64,000 nt of DNA from IMG/VR virus record IMGVR_UViG_3300028886_000031, positions 216,485 through 280,484 of that record; one strand, written 5' to 3'. The DNA is from a virus. Lineage: Duplodnaviria > Heunggongvirae > Uroviricota > Caudoviricetes. This document shows, piece after piece, positions 3,059-35,264 of the stretch. Within the stretch, counting starts at the first letter, position 1; the number at the start of each line of letters is the position of its first letter. Position numbers and translations under genes: made by a program. Below the pieces are notes generated by a model. It saw only the letters and a program-made list of their open reading frames with translations, ran no database searches and was not told where the DNA came from.

Positions 3059-3820
3059 ATGAAGATATTAGGACTAGATATAGCTACAAATACAGGATAT
3101 TGTATCTTAAATGAAGGAAAGTTGGAAACATATGGAATGTTAAATATTCCAACGGAAATGAATTTACTTCAACGAATTGGATTTTTCGAAAACAACATTA
3201 TTAAACTTCTTTCTGATTATTCTCCAGATTATGTAGCAATAGAAGATTTAATAATGGGAATATCAGGCGTTAAAACATTATCATATTTATCTAGATTAAG
3301 TGGAGTAGCACTATCTTGTTGCTATAAAAAAGTCCAGAATAATATTGCTTTATATACACCATCAGAATGGAAAGCTAACTCATTTGATGATCTGAATGGA
3401 ACGGCAAAAAAATATGAAATACAAATTGCTGTATGTAAACATTTTAAACTGATAGACGAAAATACATTAAATTCAATTACGGAAAAACTAAAAGGTATCA
3501 CGGATAATACAAGTTCAATTAAAAAGAAGATGGAAGTATTATCTTGTGATACAAAGAAATATATAGCGTTTCTTGCTAGAAAAAGAAACGGCTGTAAAAC
3601 AGAATCTGAAAAGAACTCATTCTTAAAACAAATAGAAGAGAATAAGAAGACAATTCAGATTTATAAAAAACAAATAGACGATTCCAAAAAGAATATAGAA
3701 AACACTTATAAAAATATAAGTTTGGAAATAATGTCCAAGTGTGGTTTGACTTGTGATGTCAGTGATTCCATTGGAATTGCCTATTGTTTATGGAAAAAAC
3801 TAAAACCATCTAGGATTTAA
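3059..3820 (+). CDS. RuvC/YqgF-fold nuclease (putative Holliday junction resolvase)
   Basis: The N-terminus MKILGLDIATNTGYCIL resembles the RuvC-family first catalytic Asp motif, but the 253-aa length is longer than typical RuvC. Confidence 0.4.
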   Translation: MKILGLDIATNTGYCILNEGKLETYGMLNIPTEMNLLQRIGFFENNIIKLLSDYSPDYVAIEDLIMGISGVKTLSYLSRLSGVALSCCYKKVQNNIALYTPSEWKANSFDDLNGTAKKYEIQIAVCKHFKLIDENTLNSITEKLKGITDNTSSIKKKMEVLSCDTKKYIAFLARKRNGCKTESEKNSFLKQIEENKKTIQIYKKQIDDSKKNIENTYKNISLEIMSKCGLTCDVSDSIGIAYCLWKKLKPSRI

Positions 3821-5710: not shown

Positions 5711-6593
5711 TATGAATAGTGATTATTCATTTCTAGAAGAATTCTTAATTCCTGCATTACTTACGCTTGGTGCATATTCTACTTTTAAAAATATGAGTCA
5801 ATCTGCATTAAACGCTAAAATGATGAATAGTATGCAGAAGGAATTAGGTAGATGTGATCCTAGAAATAGAAAATTAGCATTAAGCATTGTAAATAGATAT
5901 AGTACACAACTTACTCAAATTTATGCTAGAAAACTAGACAAAAAAACTTTAAAAAAATTAGCTGGTGCACAGAATTTAATCAATACTTATTTTAAAAGAC
6001 CACTTGATGAAATTATTAATAGTCCTAATCCAAATTGGAAAAGAGATTTATCGTTTTTCTTACAAAAAAATATTACATCTATTAATAGAAAACAGAATGC
6101 TTCTAATATGCTTACTCTTGCTGCACTTGGAACTGGTGCTGGTATAGCAACCGCTGGTGCCGCTACAGCAACAGGTGCAGCGCTCGGTCAAGTAAGTTTA
6201 TCTTTATTTGGATATAGAGTTATTCAATCTCAGCTTAAACATTTCAATTCTGTATATTACATAAAAAATATGTTGAAAGAAATGGAAGCATGTAATGACA
6301 GACAAACAGCATTAAAAATAGTGGATAAATATTGCTATCAGATATCTCAAGGATTAAATAGTATTGTAATTAAATCCGGAAAAAAAGTTCCTATGGATAT
6401 TCAATTAGAACTTCGAACAAGATTAGCAAAACCATTAATTGATATTATTAATAATCCAAACAACAAATACTGGAAGATATTAGCTATAGATTATATTAAA
6501 TCACATAGAGCACAAGAAACTATACAATATGTTAGCAATACTATATCACAACTCATTATTCCTACTGCAATAAGAAAATCATTAGGAAGATAA
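5700..6593 (+). CDS. hypothetical protein (297 aa) with a Gly/Ala-rich hydrophobic segment
   Basis: ORF track. It overlaps the upstream gene by 11 nt. Confidence 0.5.
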   Translation: MDINMNSDYSFLEEFLIPALLTLGAYSTFKNMSQSALNAKMMNSMQKELGRCDPRNRKLALSIVNRYSTQLTQIYARKLDKKTLKKLAGAQNLINTYFKRPLDEIINSPNPNWKRDLSFFLQKNITSINRKQNASNMLTLAALGTGAGIATAGAATATGAALGQVSLSLFGYRVIQSQLKHFNSVYYIKNMLKEMEACNDRQTALKIVDKYCYQISQGLNSIVIKSGKKVPMDIQLELRTRLAKPLIDIINNPNNKYWKILAIDYIKSHRAQETIQYVSNTISQLIIPTAIRKSLGR

Positions 6594-7085: not shown

Positions 7086-7790
7086 TTATAACATCGTAAA
7101 TCTCTTCATTAACTTGATGATTTTATTTTCAACAAGATAATCAAGGGCATTACCAGTATATGTATTTCCATTATTTAGCGTATAAAAATTTTTAGCCTCA
7201 TTAAGAATTTTTAATCCTTCTGTATGAGTTAATTCCATACACTTTCCTTCTTGTCTAACTTCTGTTACCTGAGATCCTTTATGTGAAGGTTCAGAAACAG
7301 CATCATAGCTGATAACGATTAAAGGCGCTTGAACATATTGCGCACCACCAGCATCGTTTACGTCAGCTAGACCTCTAAGAGAGAATCCTACTGGTATATG
7401 ATCAGCAATTAGACCACTTAGAATTTTTCCAGAAGCAGAATAAGGAAGGCTTTCTATTACTCCTTTAATTCTATTTCCTTCCCACCACCACTCTCTAACG
7501 ATATGTGATGCGTTTTTATATTCTACCGTTGTTTGCCTAATTTGATTATCGCTAATAGGATGGTCTAGTTCACATACAAATCGTCTATTATCTATTTTTT
7601 CCTGAATAGCTTTCATTCCTTGGTCCAAAACACTTCTTGGATAAACTCTTCTGTTTTGGTTTTTCTCATCAGCTGTTTGTAGATAACATTCGGCAATTAC
7701 TTTACCATCAGTATATTTTTTAAATCTATCAGGAACATCAAAGACTGCTCCTTCTATAACAATTGAAGGCGTTACTTTTGTTTTTGTCAT
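7086..7790 (-). CDS. hypothetical protein (234 aa)
   Basis: ORF track. Confidence 0.5.
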   Translation of the reverse strand: MTKTKVTPSIVIEGAVFDVPDRFKKYTDGKVIAECYLQTADEKNQNRRVYPRSVLDQGMKAIQEKIDNRRFVCELDHPISDNQIRQTTVEYKNASHIVREWWWEGNRIKGVIESLPYSASGKILSGLIADHIPVGFSLRGLADVNDAGGAQYVQAPLIVISYDAVSEPSHKGSQVTEVRQEGKCMELTHTEGLKILNEAKNFYTLNNGNTYTGNALDYLVENKIIKLMKRFTML

Positions 7791-8001: not shown

Positions 8002-8505
8002 ATGGCTAAACCTAGAATGCTTATTGTTCGTGGTCTTCCAGGATCAGGAAAATCTACGTATGTTAGAAATAACTATACTGGACTTTTTATTTTAGAGACA
8101 GATTGTTTCAATTGTGTTTCTGGACAGTATTATTGGACATCCGATAGAAGTACTGAAGCAATTAGACTTATAGATCGTATAAGTCTCGAGATTATGTCTA
8201 GCTCTAATACTCCAGATTTTGCTATCACTGGAGTCTTTGGTAGACCGTATAGTATGTTAAATCATATATATAGAGCTGAAGAAAATGGATATGATGTCTA
8301 TATCAAAACATTGACAAGTCAATATCCAAATATACATAATGTCCCAAAAGAAACTATTCAGATGTTTAAAAATAATTTTTTGTCAGAAGAACAATTAAAA
8401 GAAACATTTAAATCTTTCCAACATGTACATTATACAGAAATGCCAAAAATAAATTGGGAATTTCACGGAGAACCTGATAATGATTTCTCTAAGAACAAAG
8501 AATGA
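8002..8505 (+). CDS. P-loop kinase (polynucleotide kinase-like / AAA_33-type)
   Basis: Walker A MLIVRGLPGSGKST at the N-terminus, as in the T4 Pnk kinase domain and zeta-like kinases. It is a stand-alone 167-aa protein. Confidence 0.55.
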   Translation: MAKPRMLIVRGLPGSGKSTYVRNNYTGLFILETDCFNCVSGQYYWTSDRSTEAIRLIDRISLEIMSSSNTPDFAITGVFGRPYSMLNHIYRAEENGYDVYIKTLTSQYPNIHNVPKETIQMFKNNFLSEEQLKETFKSFQHVHYTEMPKINWEFHGEPDNDFSKNKE

Positions 8506-24957: not shown

Positions 24958-25905
24958 ATGAGACACTCATCGAAAACACAGAGTATATCTGATGTAATAG
25001 AACTATCGAAAGAATATTATAAAATAGATGGTATTTTCTTTGATGATACTTCTGAACAGAAATATTATAAATTACGTTTTATAGATTCCCGTATTGAAAA
25101 TCCCAAAGAAAATCAGTTCGATATAAATGTCTTTAGAGATTTCGATTATGAATCAAATAAAGAATATGCTCTTATTCATGATTTATTTATACATCATGTT
25201 CGACCATTAAAGTTTGATGTAGTAAAAGAATTTTTTAAAGATTTTACTGTAAAATATCAGGTTGTTACAAAGTGCTCAGGAGAAGAATTTAACAAATGCT
25301 ATAGCATAGAATATCCGGAAGAAGCTAAATACAAGTTAGAGAGAATATACCCGCCTCATATATATTTCTTAGCTGATACACATTTTCATCACGGCACGAG
25401 ACTTAAGAACACTCCATATAAAAGTATGCAAGAATATAATGATAAACTTATACAAAAAATTAACGCAGTTGTTCCTGAATATGCAATTCTCGTTCTTGTT
25501 GGAGATGTTTATGTTCCTAGTGATAGTAAAATGGGAAGACAGGAACAGATAGAAGAATTGACAAATATAAGAAAACAAATTAATTGTGAAAAAATCATAA
25601 TAATTCGAGGAAACCATGATAAATTAACATTAATGGATTATTTAAAATGTGGATTTTATGATGTTAGAGATAACTTGATATTACATGATTATGATGGCAG
25701 TAAAATCATCTCAACACACGAAGAAATACAAGATGATATCGGTGAATATAAAAATATTTTTGGACATATTCACAAACCAGAAATTGCTGTTACTGAATCA
25801 ACGTTTAATTGCTCTGCAAATGTTCTAGATGGAATTCCTAAATCCTTATTAGAAATTTTGGAAATGATGAAGGAAAAGACTAAAAATAAGTTTAAAAACA
25901 TATAA
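24958..25905 (+). CDS. calcineurin-like metallophosphoesterase (paralog 1) with N-terminal extra domain
   Basis: Motifs ADTHFHHG, VGDVY, RGNHDK and GHIHKP. Located between tRNA genes. Confidence 0.6.
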   Translation: MRHSSKTQSISDVIELSKEYYKIDGIFFDDTSEQKYYKLRFIDSRIENPKENQFDINVFRDFDYESNKEYALIHDLFIHHVRPLKFDVVKEFFKDFTVKYQVVTKCSGEEFNKCYSIEYPEEAKYKLERIYPPHIYFLADTHFHHGTRLKNTPYKSMQEYNDKLIQKINAVVPEYAILVLVGDVYVPSDSKMGRQEQIEELTNIRKQINCEKIIIIRGNHDKLTLMDYLKCGFYDVRDNLILHDYDGSKIISTHEEIQDDIGEYKNIFGHIHKPEIAVTESTFNCSANVLDGIPKSLLEILEMMKEKTKNKFKNI

Positions 25906-28034: not shown

Positions 28035-28124
28035 GGAACCTTGGCTGAGTCTGGCTTATAGCAGCAACCTACTAAGTTGCCGAGGGGAAACCCTCCGCTG
28101 GTTCAAATCCAGCAGGTTCCGCCA
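28035..28124 (+). tRNA. class II tRNA-Ser-like with anticodon loop CUACUAA (anticodon ACU), CCA encoded
   Basis: Acceptor GGAACCT/AGGTTCC with G discriminator (Ser identity). D-arm GCTG-AGTCTGGCTTA-TAGC. Anticodon stem GCAAC/GTTGC. The loop differs from the tRNA-Ser(GCU) loop CUGCUAA only by G34 to A. It has a long variable arm. T-arm GCTGG-TTCAAAT-CCAGC. Confidence 0.65.
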
Positions 28125-28574: not shown

Positions 28575-29201
28575 ATGAGTAAGTTCTTCATTACGAGTGA
28601 TGATCACTTCTACCATAAAAATATAATCAAATATTGTAACAGACCATGGAATCATGGTTTTGATAAAGATGGAAATATGATTATAACAGATGAAGATGTT
28701 CAAAACATGAACAATGAATTAATAGAGAACTGGAATTCTGTTGTAAATAAAGATGATATTGTTTTTAACCTTGGAGACTTTTGTTTCCTTGGCAAGAAAA
28801 CAAGTCCTAAATATTATTCTGAATACTCAAAGATATTCAATTGTTTAAATGGAGTAAAATATCTACTTATTGGAAATCACGATATTCCAGATGTACATGT
28901 TCATTATAAAATTGGATGGAAAGCAGTTTATGACAGACCAATTCTATGGTCAGGGAATATTATATTCTCACATAGACCTTTATGTACAAAATTAAAATGT
29001 GATGTTTCAAAACTTCCATTTATAAACATTTTTGGTCATATACATAACAACGGTTGTGATTTTGTTAATGGTGAATCTGTGGTAATTCCTTCCATTACAA
29101 AAAATACATTTTGTGCCTGTGTAGAATTAACGAACTATAAGCCGATTTTATTAAGTGAAATAGAAGATCGTATAAAAGAAAAGAGTCTGGAGAATGAATA
29201 G
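28575..29201 (+). CDS. calcineurin-like metallophosphoesterase (paralog 2)
   Basis: Motifs SDDHFYH, LGDFCF, IGNHD and GHIHNN. Confidence 0.6.
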   Translation: MSKFFITSDDHFYHKNIIKYCNRPWNHGFDKDGNMIITDEDVQNMNNELIENWNSVVNKDDIVFNLGDFCFLGKKTSPKYYSEYSKIFNCLNGVKYLLIGNHDIPDVHVHYKIGWKAVYDRPILWSGNIIFSHRPLCTKLKCDVSKLPFINIFGHIHNNGCDFVNGESVVIPSITKNTFCACVELTNYKPILLSEIEDRIKEKSLENE

Positions 29202-30018
29202 ATTCTTTACTGCAGATTGGCATCTATTCTCTGAGTCCGTTCGAAAACTTGGAGATAGACCTTATGCTGATATTTTTGCCATGAACAAGGCATTGATTAG
29301 AAATGCTAATCAAAGAACTCATTGTACATATAAAGAGGTATCTATTAAAGATGTTAATGGCAACAATGTTGCTATAAAAGTCCCGATTAAAGAAGATGTA
29401 ATATATCATTTAGGTGATTTCTATAAATATGATTCCCAATTCAAAGTAAAACCGGATGAGATTCTATCACATATAAACTCTAAAGTAATTCTCTTGGAAG
29501 GAAACCATGATAAGAACAATAGAGTAAAGATATTGGCAAATGCACTCACGATGGATATAGGTCCGTTTAAAAACGTTACATTATCACATTATCCATCTTA
29601 CTATGAAGAATCTAAGTTTCTTAATATTCCAAATCATTCTATACATATTTGTGGTCATGTCCACAAACTTTATAAATGGGCATACGATAAGTATAGGGAC
29701 GTTCTTAATATAAATGTTGGTGTAGATGTATGGAATTATAGAATAGTGTCAGAGCGGGAACTTATTACATATATCACATTTATACTTCAAAGATTAGATA
29801 ATAGTTTTATAACAGAGAATATAAATACAACATGTCATAAAGATTTTGTGCTAACAAACAACACTATAGAGCCAAAAAATCTGGAAAAGGAGAAAGATAA
29901 TGGCAAAAGAAAAGCAAGAAAATTCAAACTCGGAATCCAAGATAAACAACAAGAAATGTTGTCGCTGTATTTACAGGCACGAGAAAAAGTGCTCAAACAA
30001 GAAGTCACCGAACTTTGA
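29194..30018 (+). CDS. calcineurin-like metallophosphoesterase (paralog 3)
   Basis: Motifs TADWHLF, HLGDFYKYD, EGNHDKNN and GHVHK. It overlaps the upstream paralog by 8 nt. Confidence 0.6.
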   Translation: MNRFFTADWHLFSESVRKLGDRPYADIFAMNKALIRNANQRTHCTYKEVSIKDVNGNNVAIKVPIKEDVIYHLGDFYKYDSQFKVKPDEILSHINSKVILLEGNHDKNNRVKILANALTMDIGPFKNVTLSHYPSYYEESKFLNIPNHSIHICGHVHKLYKWAYDKYRDVLNINVGVDVWNYRIVSERELITYITFILQRLDNSFITENINTTCHKDFVLTNNTIEPKNLEKEKDNGKRKARKFKLGIQDKQQEMLSLYLQAREKVLKQEVTEL

Positions 30019-30446: not shown

Positions 30447-30662
30447 ATGGATAGTCGTGCAGCAACAGATTTTAAAATTAAATATGATTATCGTTTTGCA
30501 CCAAAAAGCAAAAACACATGTGATAAATGTAAGAGACATTATAAAGGTGTTGAGAGAATGATATGCAATGGCAGAACAGAATCAGAATGTTCTAGTACAG
30601 AATACCCTGTTACATTTACAACATACGAAAACCATACATGTAAGAGATTTAAAAGGCAGTAA
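30447..30662 (+). CDS. small Cys-rich protein (71 aa)
   Basis: CDKCKRHYKG...CNGRTESEC...HTCKRFK pattern. Confidence 0.45.
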   Translation: MDSRAATDFKIKYDYRFAPKSKNTCDKCKRHYKGVERMICNGRTESECSSTEYPVTFTTYENHTCKRFKRQ

Positions 30663-31309
30663 TGTTCAGGATACTTGGAAAAATCCCAAATAATTTCTAC
30701 TTAGCATGTTCCGGTGGAACGGACTCAATGGTGTTTTTGGATTTTCTCATGAAATATCCAAAAAATAAAATTACAATTTTACATTTTGATCATGGAACAC
30801 AATATTGTAAGGAAGCACATGAGTTCGTATATCGTTTCTGCATCGAACATAGATTATCTTTTGTAATACAATCTATATTACCTCAAGATAAAAAAGAGAA
30901 GAATGAATCATGGGAAGTTTACTGGAGAAGATGTAGATATAAATTCTTATCAGAATTTAAAGATAAACCGATCGTAATGTGTCATCAATTAAATGACTGC
31001 ATTGAAACTTGGATAATGACGTCTATGTCAGGTCATCCAAGACTGATACCTTATTATAATAGTAAATATAACATTATCAGACCGTTTCTGTGTGTTTCTA
31101 AATCACAGGTGGATGAATGGAGAAAACGACATAATGTGAAATGTGTGATTGATGGATCTAACTATGATCTCAGAGCAAAAAGAAATTATGTTCGACATGT
31201 CATGATGAAGAACATATATGAACTCAATCCTGGAATAGAGAAAACTATAAAAAGACTCATCACAAAACAATATAGTTTAGCTTTGGAGAATGAGTATGAC
31301 AATTCTTAA
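30662..31309 (+). CDS. PP-loop ATPase, tRNA(Ile)-lysidine synthetase (TilS) N-terminal-domain-like
   Basis: The SGGTDS PP-loop, HFDHG and CHQLNDCIETWIMTSMSGHP...IIRPFL parallel the TilS motifs SGGxDS, VDHGLR and HHxDDQAET...RPLL. It has no C-terminal Zn motif, so it is unlike QueC. Confidence 0.5.
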   Translation: MFRILGKIPNNFYLACSGGTDSMVFLDFLMKYPKNKITILHFDHGTQYCKEAHEFVYRFCIEHRLSFVIQSILPQDKKEKNESWEVYWRRCRYKFLSEFKDKPIVMCHQLNDCIETWIMTSMSGHPRLIPYYNSKYNIIRPFLCVSKSQVDEWRKRHNVKCVIDGSNYDLRAKRNYVRHVMMKNIYELNPGIEKTIKRLITKQYSLALENEYDNS

Positions 31310-32621: not shown

Positions 32622-32795
32622 ATGAAGACATATCTCAAAAAGGTTAGAAATTTTTTCCAAGTCTGTCAAGAACAAGAAAATGGAAAAAATAGAGTAATTT
32701 GTACTGTATATAGGGAATCTGATGCCATAGCAATTGCTAAGATGTTTGAATTGCAAAATTTTGTACAGAATAATTATTGTTGTAAATCAACTTAA
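32622..32795 (+). CDS. hypothetical small protein (57 aa)
   Basis: Open frame in an otherwise empty 300-nt stretch before tRNA-Lys. RBS is weak. Confidence 0.3.
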   Translation: MKTYLKKVRNFFQVCQEQENGKNRVICTVYRESDAIAIAKMFELQNFVQNNYCCKST

Positions 32796-32836
32796 AAAGT
32801 TATATGTAAAGTATATATATTAATTTCTGTACTAAT

Positions 32837-32915
32837 GGGAGTGTAGCTCAGTTGGTAGTTTAGCACGATCCTTTTAAGATCGGGGTCGCGGGTTCGATCC
32901 CCGCCACTCCCACCA
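32837..32915 (+). tRNA. tRNA-Lys (anticodon UUU), CCA encoded
   Basis: Acceptor GGGAGTG/CACTCCC. Anticodon arm CGATC-CTTTTAA-GATCG. T-arm GCGGG-TTCGATC-CCCGC. Confidence 0.8.
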
Positions 32916-32927
32916 TTAGTTCTTTAC

Positions 32928-33103
32928 CGCGGTGCTAGTGTAATTGGAAGCACGCTTCATATTCATTCTGTCTGAATCTGCAGATAACGGACAGTTTGGA
33001 AACACGAAGAGGAATGGGAGAGACGATAAGGATGTTCGAAAGAACGCCAGTCTCCAGCGCTTATGTACAAGGCGTTGAGGTTCGAATCCACCCACCGCGA
33101 CCA
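32928..33103 (+). ncRNA. tRNA-like RNA 1 (176 nt) with about 100-nt insertion between D-arm and T-arm, CCA encoded
   Basis: 5' CGCGGTG pairs with 3' CACCGCG, followed by A and CCA. It has a D-arm AGTG-TAATTGGAA-GCAC and a TTCGAAT T-loop. The T-stem is imperfect. Confidence 0.35.
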
Positions 33104-33115
33104 TTGTTCTTTTTA

Positions 33116-33270
33116 CGGGAGACTGGTGTAATGGTAGCACGTCAGGAAGGTACACCCTGAAGGAGTCCGATTGTCGAATTACCCAAACGGATATTCGATA
33201 ATAACAGTTCGTCCGGAAGTTCTGTTATACGGAAGTACTAATCGAGGTTCGAATCCTCATCTCCTGACCA
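33116..33270 (+). ncRNA. tRNA-like RNA 2 (155 nt) with about 80-nt insertion after the anticodon arm, CCA encoded
   Basis: Acceptor CGGGAGA/TCTCCTG (one G-U pair), then A and CCA. D-arm GGTG-TAATGGTA-GCAC. There is a stem TCAGG/CCTGA with a 9-nt loop. The insert has internal hairpins (TCGAAT/ATTCGA, AACAG/CTGTT). T-arm GAGG-TTCGAAT-CCTC. Confidence 0.4.
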
Positions 33271-33273
33271 TAT

Positions 33274-33388
33274 TGCGAGGTAGTGTAACGGTAGCACATC
33301 TCTTAAGGTCATAACCTGCTGCTGGTTGGCAGTGATATATGACACGACATAGAGATAGAGACAGTTCAATTCTGTGCCCTCGCAACCA
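33274..33388 (+). ncRNA. tRNA-like RNA 3 (115 nt) with about 45-nt insertion in the anticodon region, CCA encoded
   Basis: Acceptor TGCGAGG/CCTCGCA, then A and CCA. D-arm GTGT-AACGGTA-GCAC, near-identical to RNA 2. TCTCT pairs with AGAGA across the insert. T-loop TTCAATT. Confidence 0.4.
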
Positions 33389-33435
33389 CAAAAAGTCTAT
33401 GACTTTTTTTTCAAAGTTTTTAGAAAGGAGTAATT

Positions 33436-33747
33436 ATGAATTCAGATATTTCCATAGAAATGACTCATATTTTTAAACCTAGATATCCAAAACTTTCTGG
33501 GAAGAATGAACATCTTGTTTTTAATGCAGATTGTGATGATAAACCTTTCACAATATTTCCAGAAATGCCAGGTTATAAAACTTTATCTAAATTAATATTT
33601 TTAACTGCCACAAATGTAGAATGTAAAATTAGATGGAAACCAATTAATAAAAAATTCAATAGATGTGAAGGATTGGAATTCGATATTGATTTAGAAAGAA
33701 AAATAGATTCTAAATATAACTCGGTAAAAGGTACTAGACCAAAATGA
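33436..33747 (+). CDS. hypothetical protein (103 aa)
   Basis: ORF track. RBS agaaaggagtaattATG. Confidence 0.5.
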   Translation: MNSDISIEMTHIFKPRYPKLSGKNEHLVFNADCDDKPFTIFPEMPGYKTLSKLIFLTATNVECKIRWKPINKKFNRCEGLEFDIDLERKIDSKYNSVKGTRPK

Positions 33748-34355
33748 GCATTGGTTCATCTGATACAAGAAAATTTGGAAAATGGTTTCAAATTAGATGG
33801 GCTGAAAAACTTGGAGATCCAGAGAATCCATATTTAATAAGATGGACGTTAATTTTATTTGGATACTCTATTAGATTACATCATTGGTTGAGGTCAGATG
33901 ATAGAAGATATTTTCATGATCATAGTTCAAATCTTTTAAGCATTGTATTAAAAGGATGGTACATTAACGTAACTCCAAAAGACCCATCAAAAGTACCAGA
34001 CTATAAATATTCGGATAGAAAATATTGGCATACTTTTAGATCTTTAACTGGTGATTTGTATACATCTTTTTATCTTGACGATGATAATAGGGAATTACAT
34101 TTTGTAGAAGGTATATTTAATTCCTTCAAGAATTTTCTTAACATGTTTAAATACTCTATCTGGTATTCTAAAGCCACAGATAGACATTATCTATCTATTC
34201 CAAAAAGTGGAGCATGGACTCTATTGTTTGAGGGTAGAAAATATCATAAATGGGGTTTTTATGTTCCAAAAAATAAACAATCAGAAGTTAGAAAATTAAG
34301 ACCTCTAAGATATTTTCATAAATTCGGAATAATCCAGACAAAAGATTATCAATGA
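33744..34355 (+). CDS. hypothetical protein (203 aa)
   Basis: ORF track. ATGA overlap with the neighbouring gene. Confidence 0.5.
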   Translation: MSIGSSDTRKFGKWFQIRWAEKLGDPENPYLIRWTLILFGYSIRLHHWLRSDDRRYFHDHSSNLLSIVLKGWYINVTPKDPSKVPDYKYSDRKYWHTFRSLTGDLYTSFYLDDDNRELHFVEGIFNSFKNFLNMFKYSIWYSKATDRHYLSIPKSGAWTLLFEGRKYHKWGFYVPKNKQSEVRKLRPLRYFHKFGIIQTKDYQ

Positions 34356-34828
34356 AAGTTTTATTTTTGGATATAGATGGAGTCATTAATAGATTTAAGT
34401 ATTATGATGATGGAAAACTCGACAATGAGTTAGATGAAGATTGTATTAAAAGATTAAGCAACATTATAGAATCTACAAATTGTAAGATTGTTATAAGTTC
34501 TACATGGAAGGCTTCTCCTCATCTAATGGATATTCTAGAAGACGATTTATTTCCACACTTACCCGCTGGCTGTGTCGCTGGATGTACAAAGACACATATT
34601 CCACAAGTGCAACGAGAGACGGAAATTAGGGAGTATTTAGCCGAGCATAAAGACGAGATAGAGAATTATGTTATAGTGGATGATTATGATTTTGAATTAA
34701 AATCCTTCTTAAATGGCGGTCATTGTGTTATCACAGACGCGTTAGATGGACTAACAAAAGAGGATATGGATGAATGTATCAAAATTCTAAACAAAGAAAG
34801 GAATCAAAATGACAGAAGTAAAAAGTGA
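34352..34828 (+). CDS. HAD-superfamily phosphatase (T4 Pnkp phosphatase-domain-like)
   Basis: HAD motif I FLDIDGV at residues 5-11, motif II VISSTW and motif IV YVIVDDYD. It is a stand-alone 158-aa protein. Confidence 0.6.
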   Translation: MKVLFLDIDGVINRFKYYDDGKLDNELDEDCIKRLSNIIESTNCKIVISSTWKASPHLMDILEDDLFPHLPAGCVAGCTKTHIPQVQRETEIREYLAEHKDEIENYVIVDDYDFELKSFLNGGHCVITDALDGLTKEDMDECIKILNKERNQNDRSKK

Positions 34829-35264
34829 ATTATATAACAAGATCTATGAAGATCTTAAAAATTCGATGAAAGAAAAGAATATTCAAAAAAGAGATGTTCT
34901 TAAAATAATTATCTCCGGAGTTAAAAATGAAACAATTAACAACGGGAAAGATATCACAGATGACGCATGTAAATCCGTTCTAAGAAAACTTGTAAAACAA
35001 CATGAAGATTCTATACAGCAGTTCACAGATGCAAATAGAATGGATCTTGTTTCAAAGGAAGCCTTGGAACTTACATATTTGAGGTTTTACCTTCCCAAGA
35101 TGATGTCTGACGAAGAAATGAAATCAGAAATTAATAATATTATTAAGGTAAACAATATACCTTTAGCTAGGCAAAATATGGGTCAGATCATGAAAATTGT
35201 CAAGCAGTATGATAATATAGATATGAAAAAGGCTTCAGAGTATATTAAGTCAATCATGAACTGA
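34809..35264 (+). CDS. GatB/YqeY-domain protein (tRNA-binding helical domain)
   Basis: LKNSMKEKNIQKRDVLKIIISGVKN...LRKLVKQHEDSIQQF...DLVSKEALELTYLRFYLPKMMSDEEM follows the YqeY/GatB C-terminal-domain pattern (K..D..RL..LR.L...IKN...YLP..LSEEE). Confidence 0.5.
   Translation: MTEVKSELYNKIYEDLKNSMKEKNIQKRDVLKIIISGVKNETINNGKDITDDACKSVLRKLVKQHEDSIQQFTDANRMDLVSKEALELTYLRFYLPKMMSDEEMKSEINNIIKVNNIPLARQNMGQIMKIVKQYDNIDMKKASEYIKSIMN

What the first reader, a model, noticed from the sequence alone, without database searches (positions are those of the whole stretch)
32928..33388. Three tandem tRNA-like genes with canonical ends but 45-100-nt insertions in the anticodon/variable region
Immediately after tRNA-Lys lie three back-to-back elements of about 176, 155 and 115 nt. 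Each has a perfect 7-bp acceptor stem, a conventional D-arm, a TTCRANT T-loop, a discriminator A and an encoded CCA.

Two of the D-arms are near-identical: GGTGTAATGGTAGCAC and AGTGTAACGGTAGCAC.

Between D-arm and T-arm they carry long extra sequence containing its own hairpins, for example TCGAAT/ATTCGA and AACAG/CTGTT in element 2. In element 3, TCTCT pairs with AGAGA across a 47-nt loop.

The inserts are too short for group I introns. Possibilities:
- small-intron-containing tRNAs;
- processed stable RNAs like the T4 species 1 and 2 RNAs encoded in its tRNA cluster;
- tRNA mimics or decoys for host anticodon nucleases.
Basis: seen in the sequence. Interest (0 to 1): 0.75.

Follow-up and report, generated by a model that had tools for sequence, protein, structure and literature searches.

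The report
Three conserved oversized tRNA-like phage RNAs
Right after a lysine tRNA gene, this large phage carries three conserved genes for RNAs that have the ends and elbow of a tRNA but hold 40-100 extra structured bases where the anticodon or variable region should be; they are real and under selection, but they are not ordinary decoding tRNAs and what they do is unknown.

Summary
E1 (32928-33103), E2 (33116-33270) and E3 (33274-33388) each have a 7-bp acceptor stem, a GUGU/GCAC D arm, a T loop, discriminator A and encoded CCA. They sit between tRNA-Lys(UUU) and a terminator.

They are not chance or decay. The same triad occurs in synteny in three other phage lineages. It is 71-100% identical, like the real tRNAs there, while one neighbouring protein is only 49-57% identical. 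Compensatory changes are abundant: in E1, 19 of 43 pairs.

They are not canonical tRNAs:
- T stems are only 2, 4 and 4 bp.
- E2 has a 9-nt anticodon-type loop and an 80-nt variable region.
- E1 and E3 have long hairpins inside the anticodon loop.

No Rfam family, group I core, bulge-helix-bulge motif or tmRNA features were found. Removing one stretch never gave a consistent canonical tRNA, although the same test did so for another oversized phage tRNA class.

Best reading (0.45): stable tRNA-derived mimics or scaffolds that keep their inserts. Main rival (0.3): pre-tRNAs with unusual small introns, most plausibly E3. Closest precedents are T4 RNA C/D and the "enigmatic introns" of Lak megaphages.

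The parts
32792..32821 (+). Promoter-like site (TTAAAA-18 nt-TATATT) about 15 nt upstream of tRNA-Lys. Probable start of the tRNA-Lys/E1/E2/E3 transcript.
   Evidence: Consensus scan. An A/T-rich TATATATA box lies at the same place in L360, L362 and L368. The inference is weak.
32837..32915 (+). Canonical tRNA-Lys(UUU) with encoded CCA. First gene of the unit.
   Evidence: ARAGORN. Rfam tRNA, 58.6 bits. Replaced by a 49%-identical tRNA-Lys(UUU) allele in L368.
32928..33103 (+). E1, a 176-nt tRNA-like RNA.
- Acceptor 32928-32934 / 33093-33099.
- D arm 32938-32953.
- P2, a two-tier hairpin standing where the anticodon loop should be, 32955-33009. Its base stem is CUUC/GAAG and its apical tetraloop UGCA is at 32979-32982.
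- Purine-rich junction 33010-33019.
- P3 33020-33054.
- P4, an 8-bp hairpin with 7-nt loop AUGUACA, 33055-33077.
- T loop with a 2-bp stem 33079-33089.
- A33100, then CCA 33101-33103.
   Evidence: 19 of 43 pairs show changes on both sides, against 7.2+-2.1 in shuffles and at most 5 in slid controls.
33116..33270 (+). E2, a 155-nt tRNA-like RNA.
- Acceptor 33116-33122 / 33260-33266 (G2.U71).
- D arm 33126-33140.
- 5-bp stem with 9-nt loop AAGGUACAC, 33142-33160.
- Variable region 33161-33243: closing stem UCCG/CGGA 33166-33169 / 33230-33233, hairpin Ha 33173-33199, and hairpin Hb 33200-33228 with invariant UCCGGA loop.
- T arm of 4 bp, 33244-33258.
- A33267, then CCA 33268-33270.
   Evidence: 100% identical in L368. 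6 pairs show changes on both sides, against 2.4+-1.1 in shuffles.
33274..33388 (+). E3, a 115-nt tRNA-like RNA.
- Acceptor 33274-33280 / 33378-33384.
- D arm 33283-33297.
- Anticodon-type stem AUCUCU/AGAGAU, 33298-33303 / 33351-33356.
- Junctions UAA(G) 33304-33307 and (C)GACAU 33345-33350.
- Inserted hairpin 33308-33345 with invariant apical loop GCUGGUU at 33321-33327.
- T arm of 4 bp, 33361-33375.
- A33385, then CCA 33386-33388.
   Evidence: The L362 copy scores 33.3 bits on Rfam tRNA (gathering score 29), with a 40-nt insert in place of the anticodon loop.
33390..33411 (+). Terminator-like hairpin AAAAAGUC-UAU-GACUUUUU running into a U tract. End of the unit.
   Evidence: Read. The scan missed it because the stem is A/U-rich. 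L360 and L362 have GAGCUUCGGCUUUUUUUU at the same place.

Best explanation
E1, E2 and E3 are genes for stable, tRNA-derived structured RNAs that keep their extra domains. In effect they are natural 'tRNA scaffolds'.

Proposed mechanism, all of it inferred:
- They are transcribed together with tRNA-Lys(UUU) from one promoter to one terminator.
- They are cut out like tRNAs. RNase P makes the 5' end and 3' trimming stops at the encoded ACCA.
- The intact acceptor stem, D arm, T loop and elbow give them tRNA-like folding, processing and stability.
- In place of a decoding anticodon loop they display conserved extra helices and loops. E1 has P2, P3 and an AUGUACA hairpin. E2 has a 9-nt xGUACAx loop and a two-hairpin variable region with a UCCGGA loop. 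E3 has a roughly 20-bp arm capped by GCUGGUU.
- They therefore act as tRNA look-alikes that engage a partner which recognises tRNA shape, while the inserted domains provide the specific contact. The most likely partner is a host anticodon nuclease or another tRNA-binding enzyme, which would make them a decoy or inhibitor. A tRNA-processing, modifying or aminoacylating enzyme is also possible.

Shown here: the anatomy, the conservation, the covariation, the synteny and the non-canonical features.
For: 1. Real, selected RNA structure.
- The triad is syntenic in L360/L361/L365, L362 and L368.
- E1 has 19 of 43 pairs with compensatory double changes, against 7.2+-2.1 in shuffles and at most 5 in slid controls. 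E2 has 6 against 2.4.
- Identity is 71-92% between the three distant lineages. That is the same range as tRNA-Tyr, tRNA-Ile and tRNA-Lys of the same phages. The adjacent 103-aa protein is only 49-57% identical.
- No open reading frame is conserved across the region.

2. The inserts themselves are constrained.
- The apical loops GCUGGUU (E3), UCCGGA (E2) and xUGUACA (E1) and the GAAUC/GAUAAC motif of P2 are invariant, while the supporting stems change length and sequence.

3. The junction that flanks the E3 insert covaries. Alignment columns 32 and 73 read A/G, G/A, A/G and G/A in the four lineages. This fits a tandem purine-purine motif in the insert-containing form.

4. They are not canonical decoders.
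- T stems are 2, 4 and 4 bp.
- E1 and E2 have an extra base in the acceptor-D connector.
- E2 has a 9-nt loop with G, not U, before GUA in two of three distinct sequences.
- No single deletion gives the same canonical tRNA in the three lineages tested. The same test turns 'class A' oversized phage tRNAs into high-scoring tRNAs.

5. No splicing apparatus was seen.
- Rfam gives no group I or ribozyme hit even at E<=10.
- Pfam or PHROGs scans covering most of the window's 56 ORFs of 150 aa or more found no RNA ligase, RtcB or EndA family.

6. Context.
- The co-transcribed tRNA-Lys(UUU) belongs to the isoacceptor cut by anticodon nucleases such as PrrC (PMC3014915). It is swapped for a 49%-identical allele between phages whose flanks are 89-100% identical.
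- Neighbouring genes include an RNA-repair-type HAD_SAK_2 protein, metallophosphoesterases, a TilS-like PP-loop protein and a YqeY/GatB-like protein.

7. Engineering precedent. RNAs inserted into a tRNA body are stably expressed in bacteria (PMC3753655).
Against: - No expression, end-mapping or partner data exist. Processing, stability and any decoy role are inference.
- Invariant insert loops would also be expected if a dedicated protein recognised the inserts for excision.
- With its hairpin removed, the E3 of L362 and L368 leaves the 8-nt loop UGAAACAU. An uninterrupted tRNA at the syntenic position in the related phage L001 carries exactly that loop. This points towards an interrupted tRNA.
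- All three elements keep ACA(C/U) next to the 3' strand of the anticodon-type stem, plus A73. That could be the remains of real anticodon loops.
- Related phages tolerate long variable arms on ordinary decoders. E2's large variable region alone therefore does not exclude decoding (PMC7590224).
- Only four lineages are known, and two pairs of them are close. Covariation statistics are good for E1 but thin for E2 and E3.
Confidence: 0.45

Rival explanations
1. They are precursor tRNAs with unusual small insertions (mini-introns), and in E1 and E2 hyper-expanded variable arms. The insertions are removed by an unidentified endonuclease plus ligase or repair pathway. The products are working tRNAs, possibly with 8-9-nt anticodon loops. 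These would be the same phenomenon as the 'enigmatic introns' annotated in Lak megaphage tRNAs.
For: - E3 is a nearly complete tRNA with a single hairpin in the anticodon loop. The L362 copy passes the Rfam tRNA gathering score.
- Excising the hairpin leaves UAAGACAU in the window and L360, and UGAAACAU in L362 and L368. UGAAACAU is the exact loop of an uninterrupted tRNA at the equivalent position upstream of the 203-aa ORF homologue in L001.
- ARAGORN calls L360 and L362 E3 as tRNA-Val(GAC/AAC) after a 34-nt deletion.
- All three elements keep A-C-A-(C/U) before the 3' strand of the stem, and A73.
- Their conservation equals that of the real tRNAs.
- There is precedent. Another large group of phage tRNA genes ('class A') carries a conserved insertion of about 45 nt inside the anticodon stem, and these become canonical tRNAs of at least 10 specificities when it is deleted.
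- Lak megaphages were reported to have oversized tRNAs with introns (PMC6784885).
- An RNA-repair-type HAD domain and phosphoesterases lie nearby.
Against: - No deletion gives the same canonical tRNA across lineages for E1 or E2. The window's own E3 is not called at all.
- The T stems are defective, and E1 and E2 have an extra connector base.
- E1 would need at least two excisions and would still lack a T stem.
- There is no group I core, no bulge-helix-bulge motif, and the inserts are not at position 37/38.
- No ligase or splicing endonuclease was found among the window ORFs scanned.
- Insert loops are invariant and the E3 junction covaries, which is unusual for a passive intron.
- The body of the L001 tRNA is no closer to E3 than hundreds of unrelated tRNAs: 61-66% identity, rank 251-1028 of 2942.
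Confidence: 0.3
2. They are building blocks of an RNA-RNA assembly. Self-complementary loops let E1 and E2 pair with themselves or with each other through kissing loops. The tRNA-like ends serve only for processing.
For: - The apical tetraloop of E1 P2 is UGCA, CAUG or CGCG in the three distant lineages. The sequences differ but each is self-complementary. By chance this is 1/16 per lineage.
- The E1 hairpin loop contains UGUACA.
- The E2 loop contains GUAC, or UGUACA in L362.
- The E2 Hb loop is UCCGGA, and the E2 3' junction contains AGUACU.
Against: - The loops other than the P2 tetraloop are invariant, so there is no covariation test.
- Four-base kissing contacts are weak.
- Palindromic loops could equally be protein sites or come from DNA-level events.
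- Full-length duplex prediction was uninformative.
- E3's loop is not palindromic.
Confidence: 0.1
3. They are decaying tRNA pseudogenes or chance tRNA-like sequences with no function.
For: Default ARAGORN and Rfam at gathering threshold do not call them. Several tRNA features are degenerate.
Against: - They are conserved in synteny in four lineages at tRNA-like identity, with many compensatory changes.
- E2 is 100% identical between the window and L368, while the flanking genes differ by 3-11%.
- Hits with an NCCA tail are 16 times more frequent than in shuffles.
Confidence: 0.03

Closest known systems
Bacteriophage T4 species 1 and species 2 RNAs (rnaC, rnaD)
   Same: - They are small stable RNAs of 139 and 119 nt encoded back to back at the end of a phage tRNA cluster, directly after a tRNA gene.
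- rnaC has a perfect T arm, CCGGG-UUCGAAU-CCCGG, near its 3' end.
- Their biological role is unknown (PMC3014915).
   Different: - There is no detectable sequence similarity. blastn of the region against 50,697 phage records hits only the tRNA-Lys part.
- Read by eye, T4 rnaC and rnaD show no clear 7-bp acceptor plus D arm plus encoded ACCA. E1-E3 have all three.
Oversized tRNA genes with 'enigmatic introns' in Lak megaphages (Devoto et al. 2019, PMC6784885)
   Same: - Both are large gut-associated phages with tRNA genes too long for bacterial tRNA finders.
- In both, an 'intron' is only called when eukaryote or intron mode is switched on. Here that is ARAGORN -i at lowered thresholds.
- In both, the inserted sequences are highly conserved between genomes.
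   Different: - The Lak cases were reported as tRNAs of defined anticodon (Phe, Gly, Thr, Tyr) with one intron. Here the anticodon calls are inconsistent between lineages.
- E1 and E2 also have large variable regions and defective T stems.
- Sequence comparison was not possible, because the paper's supplementary table is not held.
- Splicing has not been shown in either case.
'Class A' oversized tRNA genes found here in IMG/VR phage tRNA clusters
   Same: They share the D arm GUGUAAYGGUAGCAC, a 7-bp acceptor and often ACCA. They are 109-123 nt long with a structured insertion in the anticodon arm, and they sit inside phage tRNA arrays.
   Different: - Class A has one conserved insertion of about 45 nt (a hairpin plus CAGCA) in the 5' strand of the anticodon stem.
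- It has normal 5-bp T stems and U8.
- It becomes a canonical tRNA of many specificities when the insertion is deleted.
- E1-E3 share none of the class A insert sequence and fail the deletion test.
Engineered tRNA scaffolds and aptamer-tagged tRNAs
   Same: A foreign structured RNA is placed in the anticodon arm or variable arm of a tRNA body. The cell then processes and stabilises it like a tRNA (PMC3753655, PMC7590224). E3 has exactly this architecture.
   Different: Those are man-made. Here the arrangement is natural, conserved and of unknown cargo function.
tmRNA and other tRNA-like domains
   Same: They share an acceptor stem, a T arm and a CCA end, with a long insertion between them.
   Different: - There is no G3.U70, no tag reading frame and no pseudoknots.
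- A D stem is present.
- ARAGORN tmRNA mode gave only a spurious permuted call at an 80% threshold.
- Rfam tmRNA_permuted scores 19 bits against a gathering score of 47.

Membership tests
Canonical tRNA (Rfam RF00005) | 7-bp acceptor stem, discriminator base, CCA end | tested here: met
   All three elements. The stem is conserved or covaries in relatives.
Canonical tRNA (Rfam RF00005) | 5-bp anticodon stem closing a 7-nt loop with U33 and a purine at position 37 | tested here: not met
   E2 has a 9-nt loop. E3 has 47 nt between the stem strands. E1 has a 4-bp stem enclosing a 47-nt hairpin domain.
Canonical tRNA (Rfam RF00005) | 5-bp T stem with a 7-nt T loop, and a 2-nt connector (U8, N9) | tested here: not met
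   The T loops are present, but the stems are 2 bp (E1), 4 bp (E2) and 4 bp (E3). The connector is CUA in E1, CUG in E2 and UA in E3.
Canonical tRNA (Rfam RF00005) | Score at or above the family's gathering threshold (29 bits) | tested here: inconclusive
   The window elements give no hit. The L362 copy of E3 scores 33.3 bits, with a 40-nt insertion.
Group I intron-containing bacterial tRNA | Intron with the conserved catalytic core, typically over 200 nt, detectable with the Rfam group I model | tested here: not met
   The inserts are 34-103 nt. Rfam gives no group I hit even at E<=10.
Archaeal/eukaryal protein-spliced tRNA intron | Bulge-helix-bulge motif at the exon-intron borders, canonical site 37/38 | tested here: not met
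   The folds show a 3-4-nt and a 5-6-nt junction flanking a continuous hairpin, with no 3-4-3 bulge-helix-bulge arrangement. The insertion lies 5' of the conserved ACA(C/U), not at 37/38. This was judged by eye.
tmRNA | G3.U70 pair, tag-peptide reading frame with a resume codon, pseudoknots | tested here: not met
   None of the three has G3.U70. No reading frame is conserved. ARAGORN -m and Rfam are negative.
T4 rnaC/rnaD stable RNAs | Sequence homology to T4 species 1 or species 2 RNA | tested here: not met
   blastn against the phage collection finds no similarity outside tRNA-Lys. The sequences show only the generic T loop in common.
T4 rnaC/rnaD stable RNAs | Stable small RNA released from a tRNA-cluster transcript | not testable with these tools
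   This needs RNA data. The genomic position is analogous.
Lak-type 'intron' tRNAs | A mature tRNA of defined anticodon recovered after removing one insert | tested here: inconclusive
   E1 and E2: no consistent product. E3: Val(GAC) in L360, Val(AAC) in L362, and no call in the window.
ROOL / GOLLD and other large phage-associated RNAs | Match to the Rfam covariance models | tested here: not met
   No hits in the window or in the relatives.

The most novel reading that the evidence does not exclude
Large phages may encode a previously unrecognised class of 'cargo-carrying' tRNA-like RNAs. A tRNA chassis ensures processing and stability. The anticodon or variable region has been replaced by dedicated functional modules. 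These RNAs would be deployed together with fast-evolving tRNA-Lys(UUU) alleles as an RNA-based counter-defence cassette against tRNA-targeting immunity. Alternatively, and equally novel, bacteria-infecting phages may use an unknown non-group-I splicing route for small tRNA introns. The roughly 45-nt 'class A' insertion found in tRNAs of at least 10 specificities would be the widespread example, and E3 a variant.
Probability: 0.3. Interest if true: 0.85.

Novelty: new variant of a known kind. Interest (0 to 1): 0.68.

Why it matters
- Phage tRNA clusters are usually read as codon-usage helpers or, more recently, as replacements for tRNAs destroyed by host immunity. Conserved RNAs that look like tRNAs at both ends but cannot decode suggest phages also use the tRNA shape for something else, such as decoys, inhibitors, scaffolds or an unknown splicing pathway.
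- The three genes have no Rfam family and standard annotation does not see them.
- The same search showed that oversized tRNA-like genes are common in phage tRNA arrays, so the blind spot is general.
- The function of the analogous T4 RNAs has been open for decades. A compact four-gene operon with clear covariation gives a testable system.

Tried and rejected
**Searches that found nothing useful**
- Rfam at gathering threshold and at E<=10 on the window and on relatives gave only tRNA, plus spurious tmRNA_permuted, CRISPR-DR and snoRNA hits.
- Searches for more homologues:
  - GenBank phages by blastn.
  - IMG/VR by three insert-specific patterns.
  - JGI metagenomes, which returned only the L360 lineage.
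  - GTDB genomes: one scan found nothing and one gave a chance hit inside an ORF.
  - nhmmer against 3.36 Mb of phage tRNA-cluster loci, which matched only D-arm and T-arm fragments.
- Pfam and PHROGs scans of most of the window's ORFs of 150 aa or more found no RNA ligase, RtcB or splicing endonuclease family. One 167-aa P-loop protein at 8002-8505 gave only a weak partial match to a PHROG annotated 'RNA ligase'.
- Literature searches found no description of these RNAs.

**Ideas tested and dropped or weakened**
- ARAGORN intron mode called Gly(UCC), Asn(GUU) and Leu(AAG) only at lowered thresholds. The calls are not reproduced in relatives, so they were rejected as anticodon assignments.
- tmRNA or small-ORF idea for E1: the AUG after GAGG opens no conserved frame. 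There is a stop after 4 codons in L360 and immediately in L362 (read).
- 'All three are valine tRNAs', based on NAC-A next to the stem and A73. This is weakened for three reasons:
  - The two bases before ACAC in E1 vary freely: AA, UG, GA, UU.
  - The G/A in E3 covaries with a base across the junction.
  - This D arm is typical of Gln, Trp and Gly phage tRNAs, and is seen in none of 109 distinct Val tRNAs.
- E1 as a tRNA-Tyr relative: the loop (A/C)UGUACA differs from the phage's tRNA-Tyr loop CUGUAAA by one base, but the hairpin sits in the variable-arm position. The acceptor does not track tRNA-Tyr.
- Antisense targets of the conserved loops within the window: only chance-level 8-10-mers.
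- Whole-molecule duplex prediction between the elements: uninformative, because it ignores internal structure.
- Homology of E3 to the 8-nt-loop tRNA of L001: the loop and the position agree, but overall identity is unremarkable.
Full report
**1. What is there**

The window is an A/T-rich stretch of a large phage. It has a T4-type prohead protease, NAMPT and many nucleotide and sugar enzymes. One protein encoded here is found on contigs of up to 321 kb. ARAGORN finds nine tRNAs, all with encoded CCA.

The region of the finding is laid out as follows:

| Feature | Coordinates | Length |
|---|---|---|
| tRNA-Lys(UUU) | 32837-32915 | 79 nt |
| spacer | | 12 nt |
| E1 | 32928-33103 | 176 nt |
| spacer | | 12 nt |
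| E2 | 33116-33270 | 155 nt |
| spacer | | 3 nt |
| E3 | 33274-33388 | 115 nt |
| A/U-rich hairpin running into a U tract | 33390-33411 | |

A promoter-like TTAAAA-18-TATATT site lies just upstream of tRNA-Lys. The four genes therefore look like one transcription unit.

**2. Check of the observation**

- 7-bp acceptor stems. The one in E2 includes G2.U71.
- A D arm GUGU-N7/8-GCAC with the GG of a normal D loop.
- T loops UUCGAAU, UUCGAAU and UUCAAUU.
- Discriminator A and CCA.

Several details differ from 'conventional':
- The T stem has only two conserved pairs in E1 and four in E2 and E3.
- E1 and E2 have three bases between the acceptor and D stems.
- E3 has one extra base before the 3' acceptor strand.

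Neither default ARAGORN nor Rfam at gathering threshold reports the elements.

A generic filter (T loop, at least 4 of 5 T-stem pairs, 7-bp closing stem, 95-260 nt) is not selective by itself. It finds 9 hits, against 9.2+-3.6 in dinucleotide shuffles. With an NCCA tail it finds 2, against 0.125 expected. Those two are E2 and E3.

**3. Relatives**

GenBank phages and IMG/VR contain no homologue.

The small ORFs that flank the RNAs led to three further lineages with the same gene order. That order is: two metallophosphoesterases, a TilS-like PP-loop protein, a Band-7 protein, a small ORF, tRNA-Lys, E1, E2, E3, terminator, a 103-aa ORF, a cupin-like ORF of 183-203 aa, HAD_SAK_2 and YqeY (YqeY lies further downstream in L362). 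The lineages are:
- L360, which is the same as L361, L364 and L365.
- L362.
- L368, a close relative of the window.

Identities to and among the distant lineages:

| Gene | Identity |
|---|---|
| E1 | 71-78% |
| E2 | 77-84% |
| E3 | 85-92% |
| tRNA-Tyr | 85-92% |
| tRNA-Ile | 74-82% |
| tRNA-Lys | 81-99% |
| neighbouring 103-aa protein (amino acids) | 49-57% |

The elements fall in the same range as the genuine tRNAs of the same contigs.

Against L368, E1 is 96% identical, E2 100% and E3 94.8%. The flanking genes are 89-97% identical.

**4. Structure and covariation**

RNAalifold and explicit pair counting support the following folds (coordinates).

E1:
- Acceptor stem and D arm.
- P2, whose 4-bp base stem CUUC/GAAG (CUCC/GGAG in L362) stands where an anticodon stem would. 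It encloses a two-tier hairpin with invariant GAAUC-N4-GAUAAC.
- A purine-rich junction.
- P3, a two-tier hairpin.
- P4, an 8-bp hairpin with the 7-nt loop (A/C)UGUACA. It directly abuts the T loop, which is the position of a class II variable arm.
- 19 of 43 pairs show changes on both sides, against 7.2+-2.1 in shuffles and at most 5 when partners are slid.

E2:
- A 5-bp stem, UCAGG/CCUGA or UCGGG/CCCGA, with the 9-nt loop AAGGUACAC or AAUGUACAA.
- An 80-nt variable region in which UCCG/CGGA closes two hairpins. One has an invariant UCCGGA loop.
- 6 pairs show changes on both sides, against 2.4+-1.1 in shuffles.

E3:
- A 6-bp stem AUCUCU/AGAGAU.
- Junctions UAA or UGA on the 5' side and GACAU or AACAU on the 3' side.
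- A hairpin whose stems differ in length and sequence between lineages. Its apical GCUGGUU is invariant.

The two junction purines of E3 covary as A/G, G/A, A/G and G/A in the window, L368, L360 and L362. The change has therefore happened at least twice. I read this as a purine-purine motif at the foot of the inserted helix, which means selection acts on the insert-containing form.

No reading frame is conserved over the region, and the indels are not multiples of three.

**5. Are they intron-containing tRNAs?**

With intron mode and thresholds lowered to 90%, ARAGORN calls E1 Gly(UCC), E2 Asn(GUU) and E3 Leu(AAG).

I then deleted every possible single stretch from each element in the window, L360 and L362 and re-ran ARAGORN:

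| Element | Window | L360 | L362 |
|---|---|---|---|
| E1 | Trp or Ile | Gly, Leu and others | Thr |
| E2 | Ile or Asn | Arg | nothing |
| E3 | nothing | Val(GAC) | Val(AAC) |

All calls were at or near the default threshold.

The test does have power. It converts the 'class A' elements described in section 7 into tRNAs that pass 115% of the threshold.

Other negatives:
- The inserts (34-103 nt) are far below group I size and give no Rfam hit.
- There is no bulge-helix-bulge arrangement.
- Pfam or PHROGs scans covering most of the window's 56 ORFs of 150 aa or more found no RNA ligase, RtcB or EndA-type gene.

Points in favour of splicing, mainly for E3:
- Removing exactly the hairpin leaves the 8-nt loop UAAGACAU or UGAAACAU.
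- An uninterrupted cloverleaf tRNA with the loop UGAAACAU sits at the matching position upstream of the 203-aa ORF homologue in the related contig L001. ARAGORN labels it 'tRNA-?(Phe|Val)(aaac)'.
- The body of that tRNA is, however, no closer to E3 than hundreds of unrelated tRNAs.

All three elements keep A-C-A-(C/U) just before the 3' strand of the stem, and A73. This could be a relic of a shared ancestral anticodon loop. A valine origin is not supported, because among canonical phage tRNAs this D arm belongs mostly to Gln, Trp and Gly, and to none of 109 distinct Val tRNAs.

**6. Interpretation**

Shown:
- Three tRNA-derived genes are under purifying selection on both the tRNA-like frame and the inserted domains.
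- They lie in one unit with tRNA-Lys(UUU).
- They are not canonical decoders as encoded.

Inferred:
- They are processed like tRNAs and accumulate as oversized tRNA-like RNAs.

I commit to the 'tRNA mimic or scaffold with cargo' model at 0.45. The reasons are the invariant cargo loops, the covarying E3 junction, the multiple departures from tRNA geometry in E1 and E2, the failed deletion test and the lack of any visible splicing machinery.

The most likely use is to engage a factor that recognises tRNA shape. A decoy or inhibitor of tRNA-directed host defence fits the context. The companion tRNA-Lys(UUU) belongs to the isoacceptor cut by anticodon nucleases such as PrrC (PMC3014915). It has been exchanged for a 49%-identical allele between two phages that are otherwise 89-100% identical here. 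That role is not tested.

The other models are:
- Small-intron pre-tRNAs, 0.3, strongest for E3.
- Kissing-loop assembly, 0.1. It rests on self-complementary loops: UGCA, CAUG and CGCG in E1 P2, plus UGUACA, UCCGGA and AGUACU. Apart from the varying P2 tetraloop there is no covariation test.
- Pseudogenes, effectively excluded.

**7. Comparison with what is known**

- T4 RNA C and RNA D share the genomic logic and, for RNA C, a T arm. Their function is unknown (PMC3014915), and there is no sequence similarity.
- Lak megaphages were reported to carry oversized tRNAs with 'enigmatic introns', predicted only with eukaryotic settings (PMC6784885). This is the nearest published description, and it has no mechanism.
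- Engineered tRNA scaffolds and variable-arm aptamer tags show that such chimeras are processed, stable and even translationally active in bacteria (PMC3753655, PMC7590224).
- E1-E3 have no Rfam family and were found in only four lineages.

A scan of IMG/VR for the same D arm showed that oversized tRNA-like genes are frequent in phage tRNA arrays. It gave 64 distinct sequences from capped searches:
- 'Class A', 109-123 nt.
- 'Class B', 96-100 nt, with the motif GGAAGUCCGAGA...GUAGGCA.
- Several singletons.

In class A, a conserved hairpin plus CAGCA interrupts the 5' strand of the anticodon stem. The split stem covaries. At alignment columns 26/96 the pairs are CG 18, UA 6, AU 1 and UG 1. At columns 27/95 they are UA 11, GC 7, UG 6 and CG 1.

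**8. Verdict**

It is a new variant of a known but unexplained kind: stable tRNA-like RNAs, or oversized tRNA genes, in phage tRNA clusters. Its function is unresolved. The decisive experiment is simple, namely sizing the RNAs and looking for junction reads.

Noticed in passing
IMG/VR loci, e.g. L148:564-682, L156:400-515, L161:8428-8548 (minus strand), L145:8895-9016 and L145:9129-9249: 'Class A' is a widespread group of phage tRNA genes: 36 distinct sequences of 109-123 nt from capped scans. Each carries a conserved insertion of about 45 nt (hairpin GAUCCUG-loop-AGGAUAC, then CAGCA) inside the 5' strand of the anticodon stem. Deleting it gives high-scoring canonical tRNAs of at least 10 specificities (Met, Asp, Ser, His, Pro, Thr, Trp, Gln, Ile, Cys). 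The split anticodon stem covaries. There is no Rfam family. This may be a small non-group-I tRNA intron.
   Followed up: partly
IMG/VR loci, e.g. L132:2971-3067, L155:4213-4313, L137 and L139 (minus strand): 'Class B' is a second group of oversized tRNA-like genes, 96-100 nt. They share the same D arm and a conserved insert GGAAGUCCGAGA-hairpin-GUAGGCA-hairpin. L132 scores just above the Rfam tRNA gathering score, at 29.7 bits. Deletion tests give inconsistent anticodons.
   Followed up: partly
window 32837-32915 compared with L368:3225-3299: tRNA-Lys(UUU) at the head of the operon is replaced by a completely different tRNA-Lys(UUU) allele, 49% identical, with acceptor UCCUCCU instead of GGGAGUG. 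The two phages are otherwise 89-100% identical in the flanking genes and in E1-E3. This suggests cassette swapping or diversifying selection on this isoacceptor.
   Followed up: partly
L011:1044-1131, 1944-2028, 2866-2952, 3220-3305; L003:5401-5484, 6026-6108, 7104-7190: Related phages were found through the 203-aa ORF. They encode tRNA-Lys, Trp, Cys, Met, Phe and His with long, class II-like variable arms, 82-88 nt in total. These isoacceptors normally have short variable loops.
   Followed up: no
L001:3090-3166: A cloverleaf tRNA with an 8-nt anticodon loop UGAAACAU lies upstream of the homologue of window ORF 33744-34355. ARAGORN labels it 'tRNA-?(Phe|Val)(aaac)'. The loop equals the two junctions of L362 and L368 E3 joined together.
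   Followed up: partly
window 32979-32982; L360 and L362 equivalents; window 33063-33069, 33147-33155 and 33212-33217: Hairpin loops in E1 and E2 are self-complementary. The P2 tetraloop is UGCA, CAUG or CGCG in three lineages. Other loops are UGUACA, GUAC and UCCGGA. At DNA level these are 6-bp palindromes. The meaning is unknown.
   Followed up: no
L366:16583-16709 (LR745206.1, a 635-kb uncultured phage): Another oversized (123-nt) tRNA-like gene with a 7-bp acceptor, a D arm and a T arm lies inside a dense tRNA cluster of a huge phage. It is unrelated in sequence to E1-E3.
   Followed up: no
window 28035-28124: ARAGORN calls a 90-nt class II tRNA with anticodon ACU, labelled Ser. This is an unusual A34 anticodon that would read AGU.
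   Followed up: no
window 28575-30018, 24958-25905, 30662-31309, 34352-35264: A cluster of RNA- and tRNA-related genes surrounds the RNA genes. It holds three calcineurin-like phosphoesterases, a 215-aa TilS-like PP-loop protein that lacks the usual C-terminal tRNA-binding part, a HAD domain of the 'Swiss Army Knife' RNA-repair type, and a YqeY/GatB-like protein.
   Followed up: partly
L360:4935-5180: L360 has an extra intergenic stretch of about 250 nt between the Band-7 region and the 57-aa ORF. The window lacks it. It was not analysed for RNA structure.
   Followed up: no
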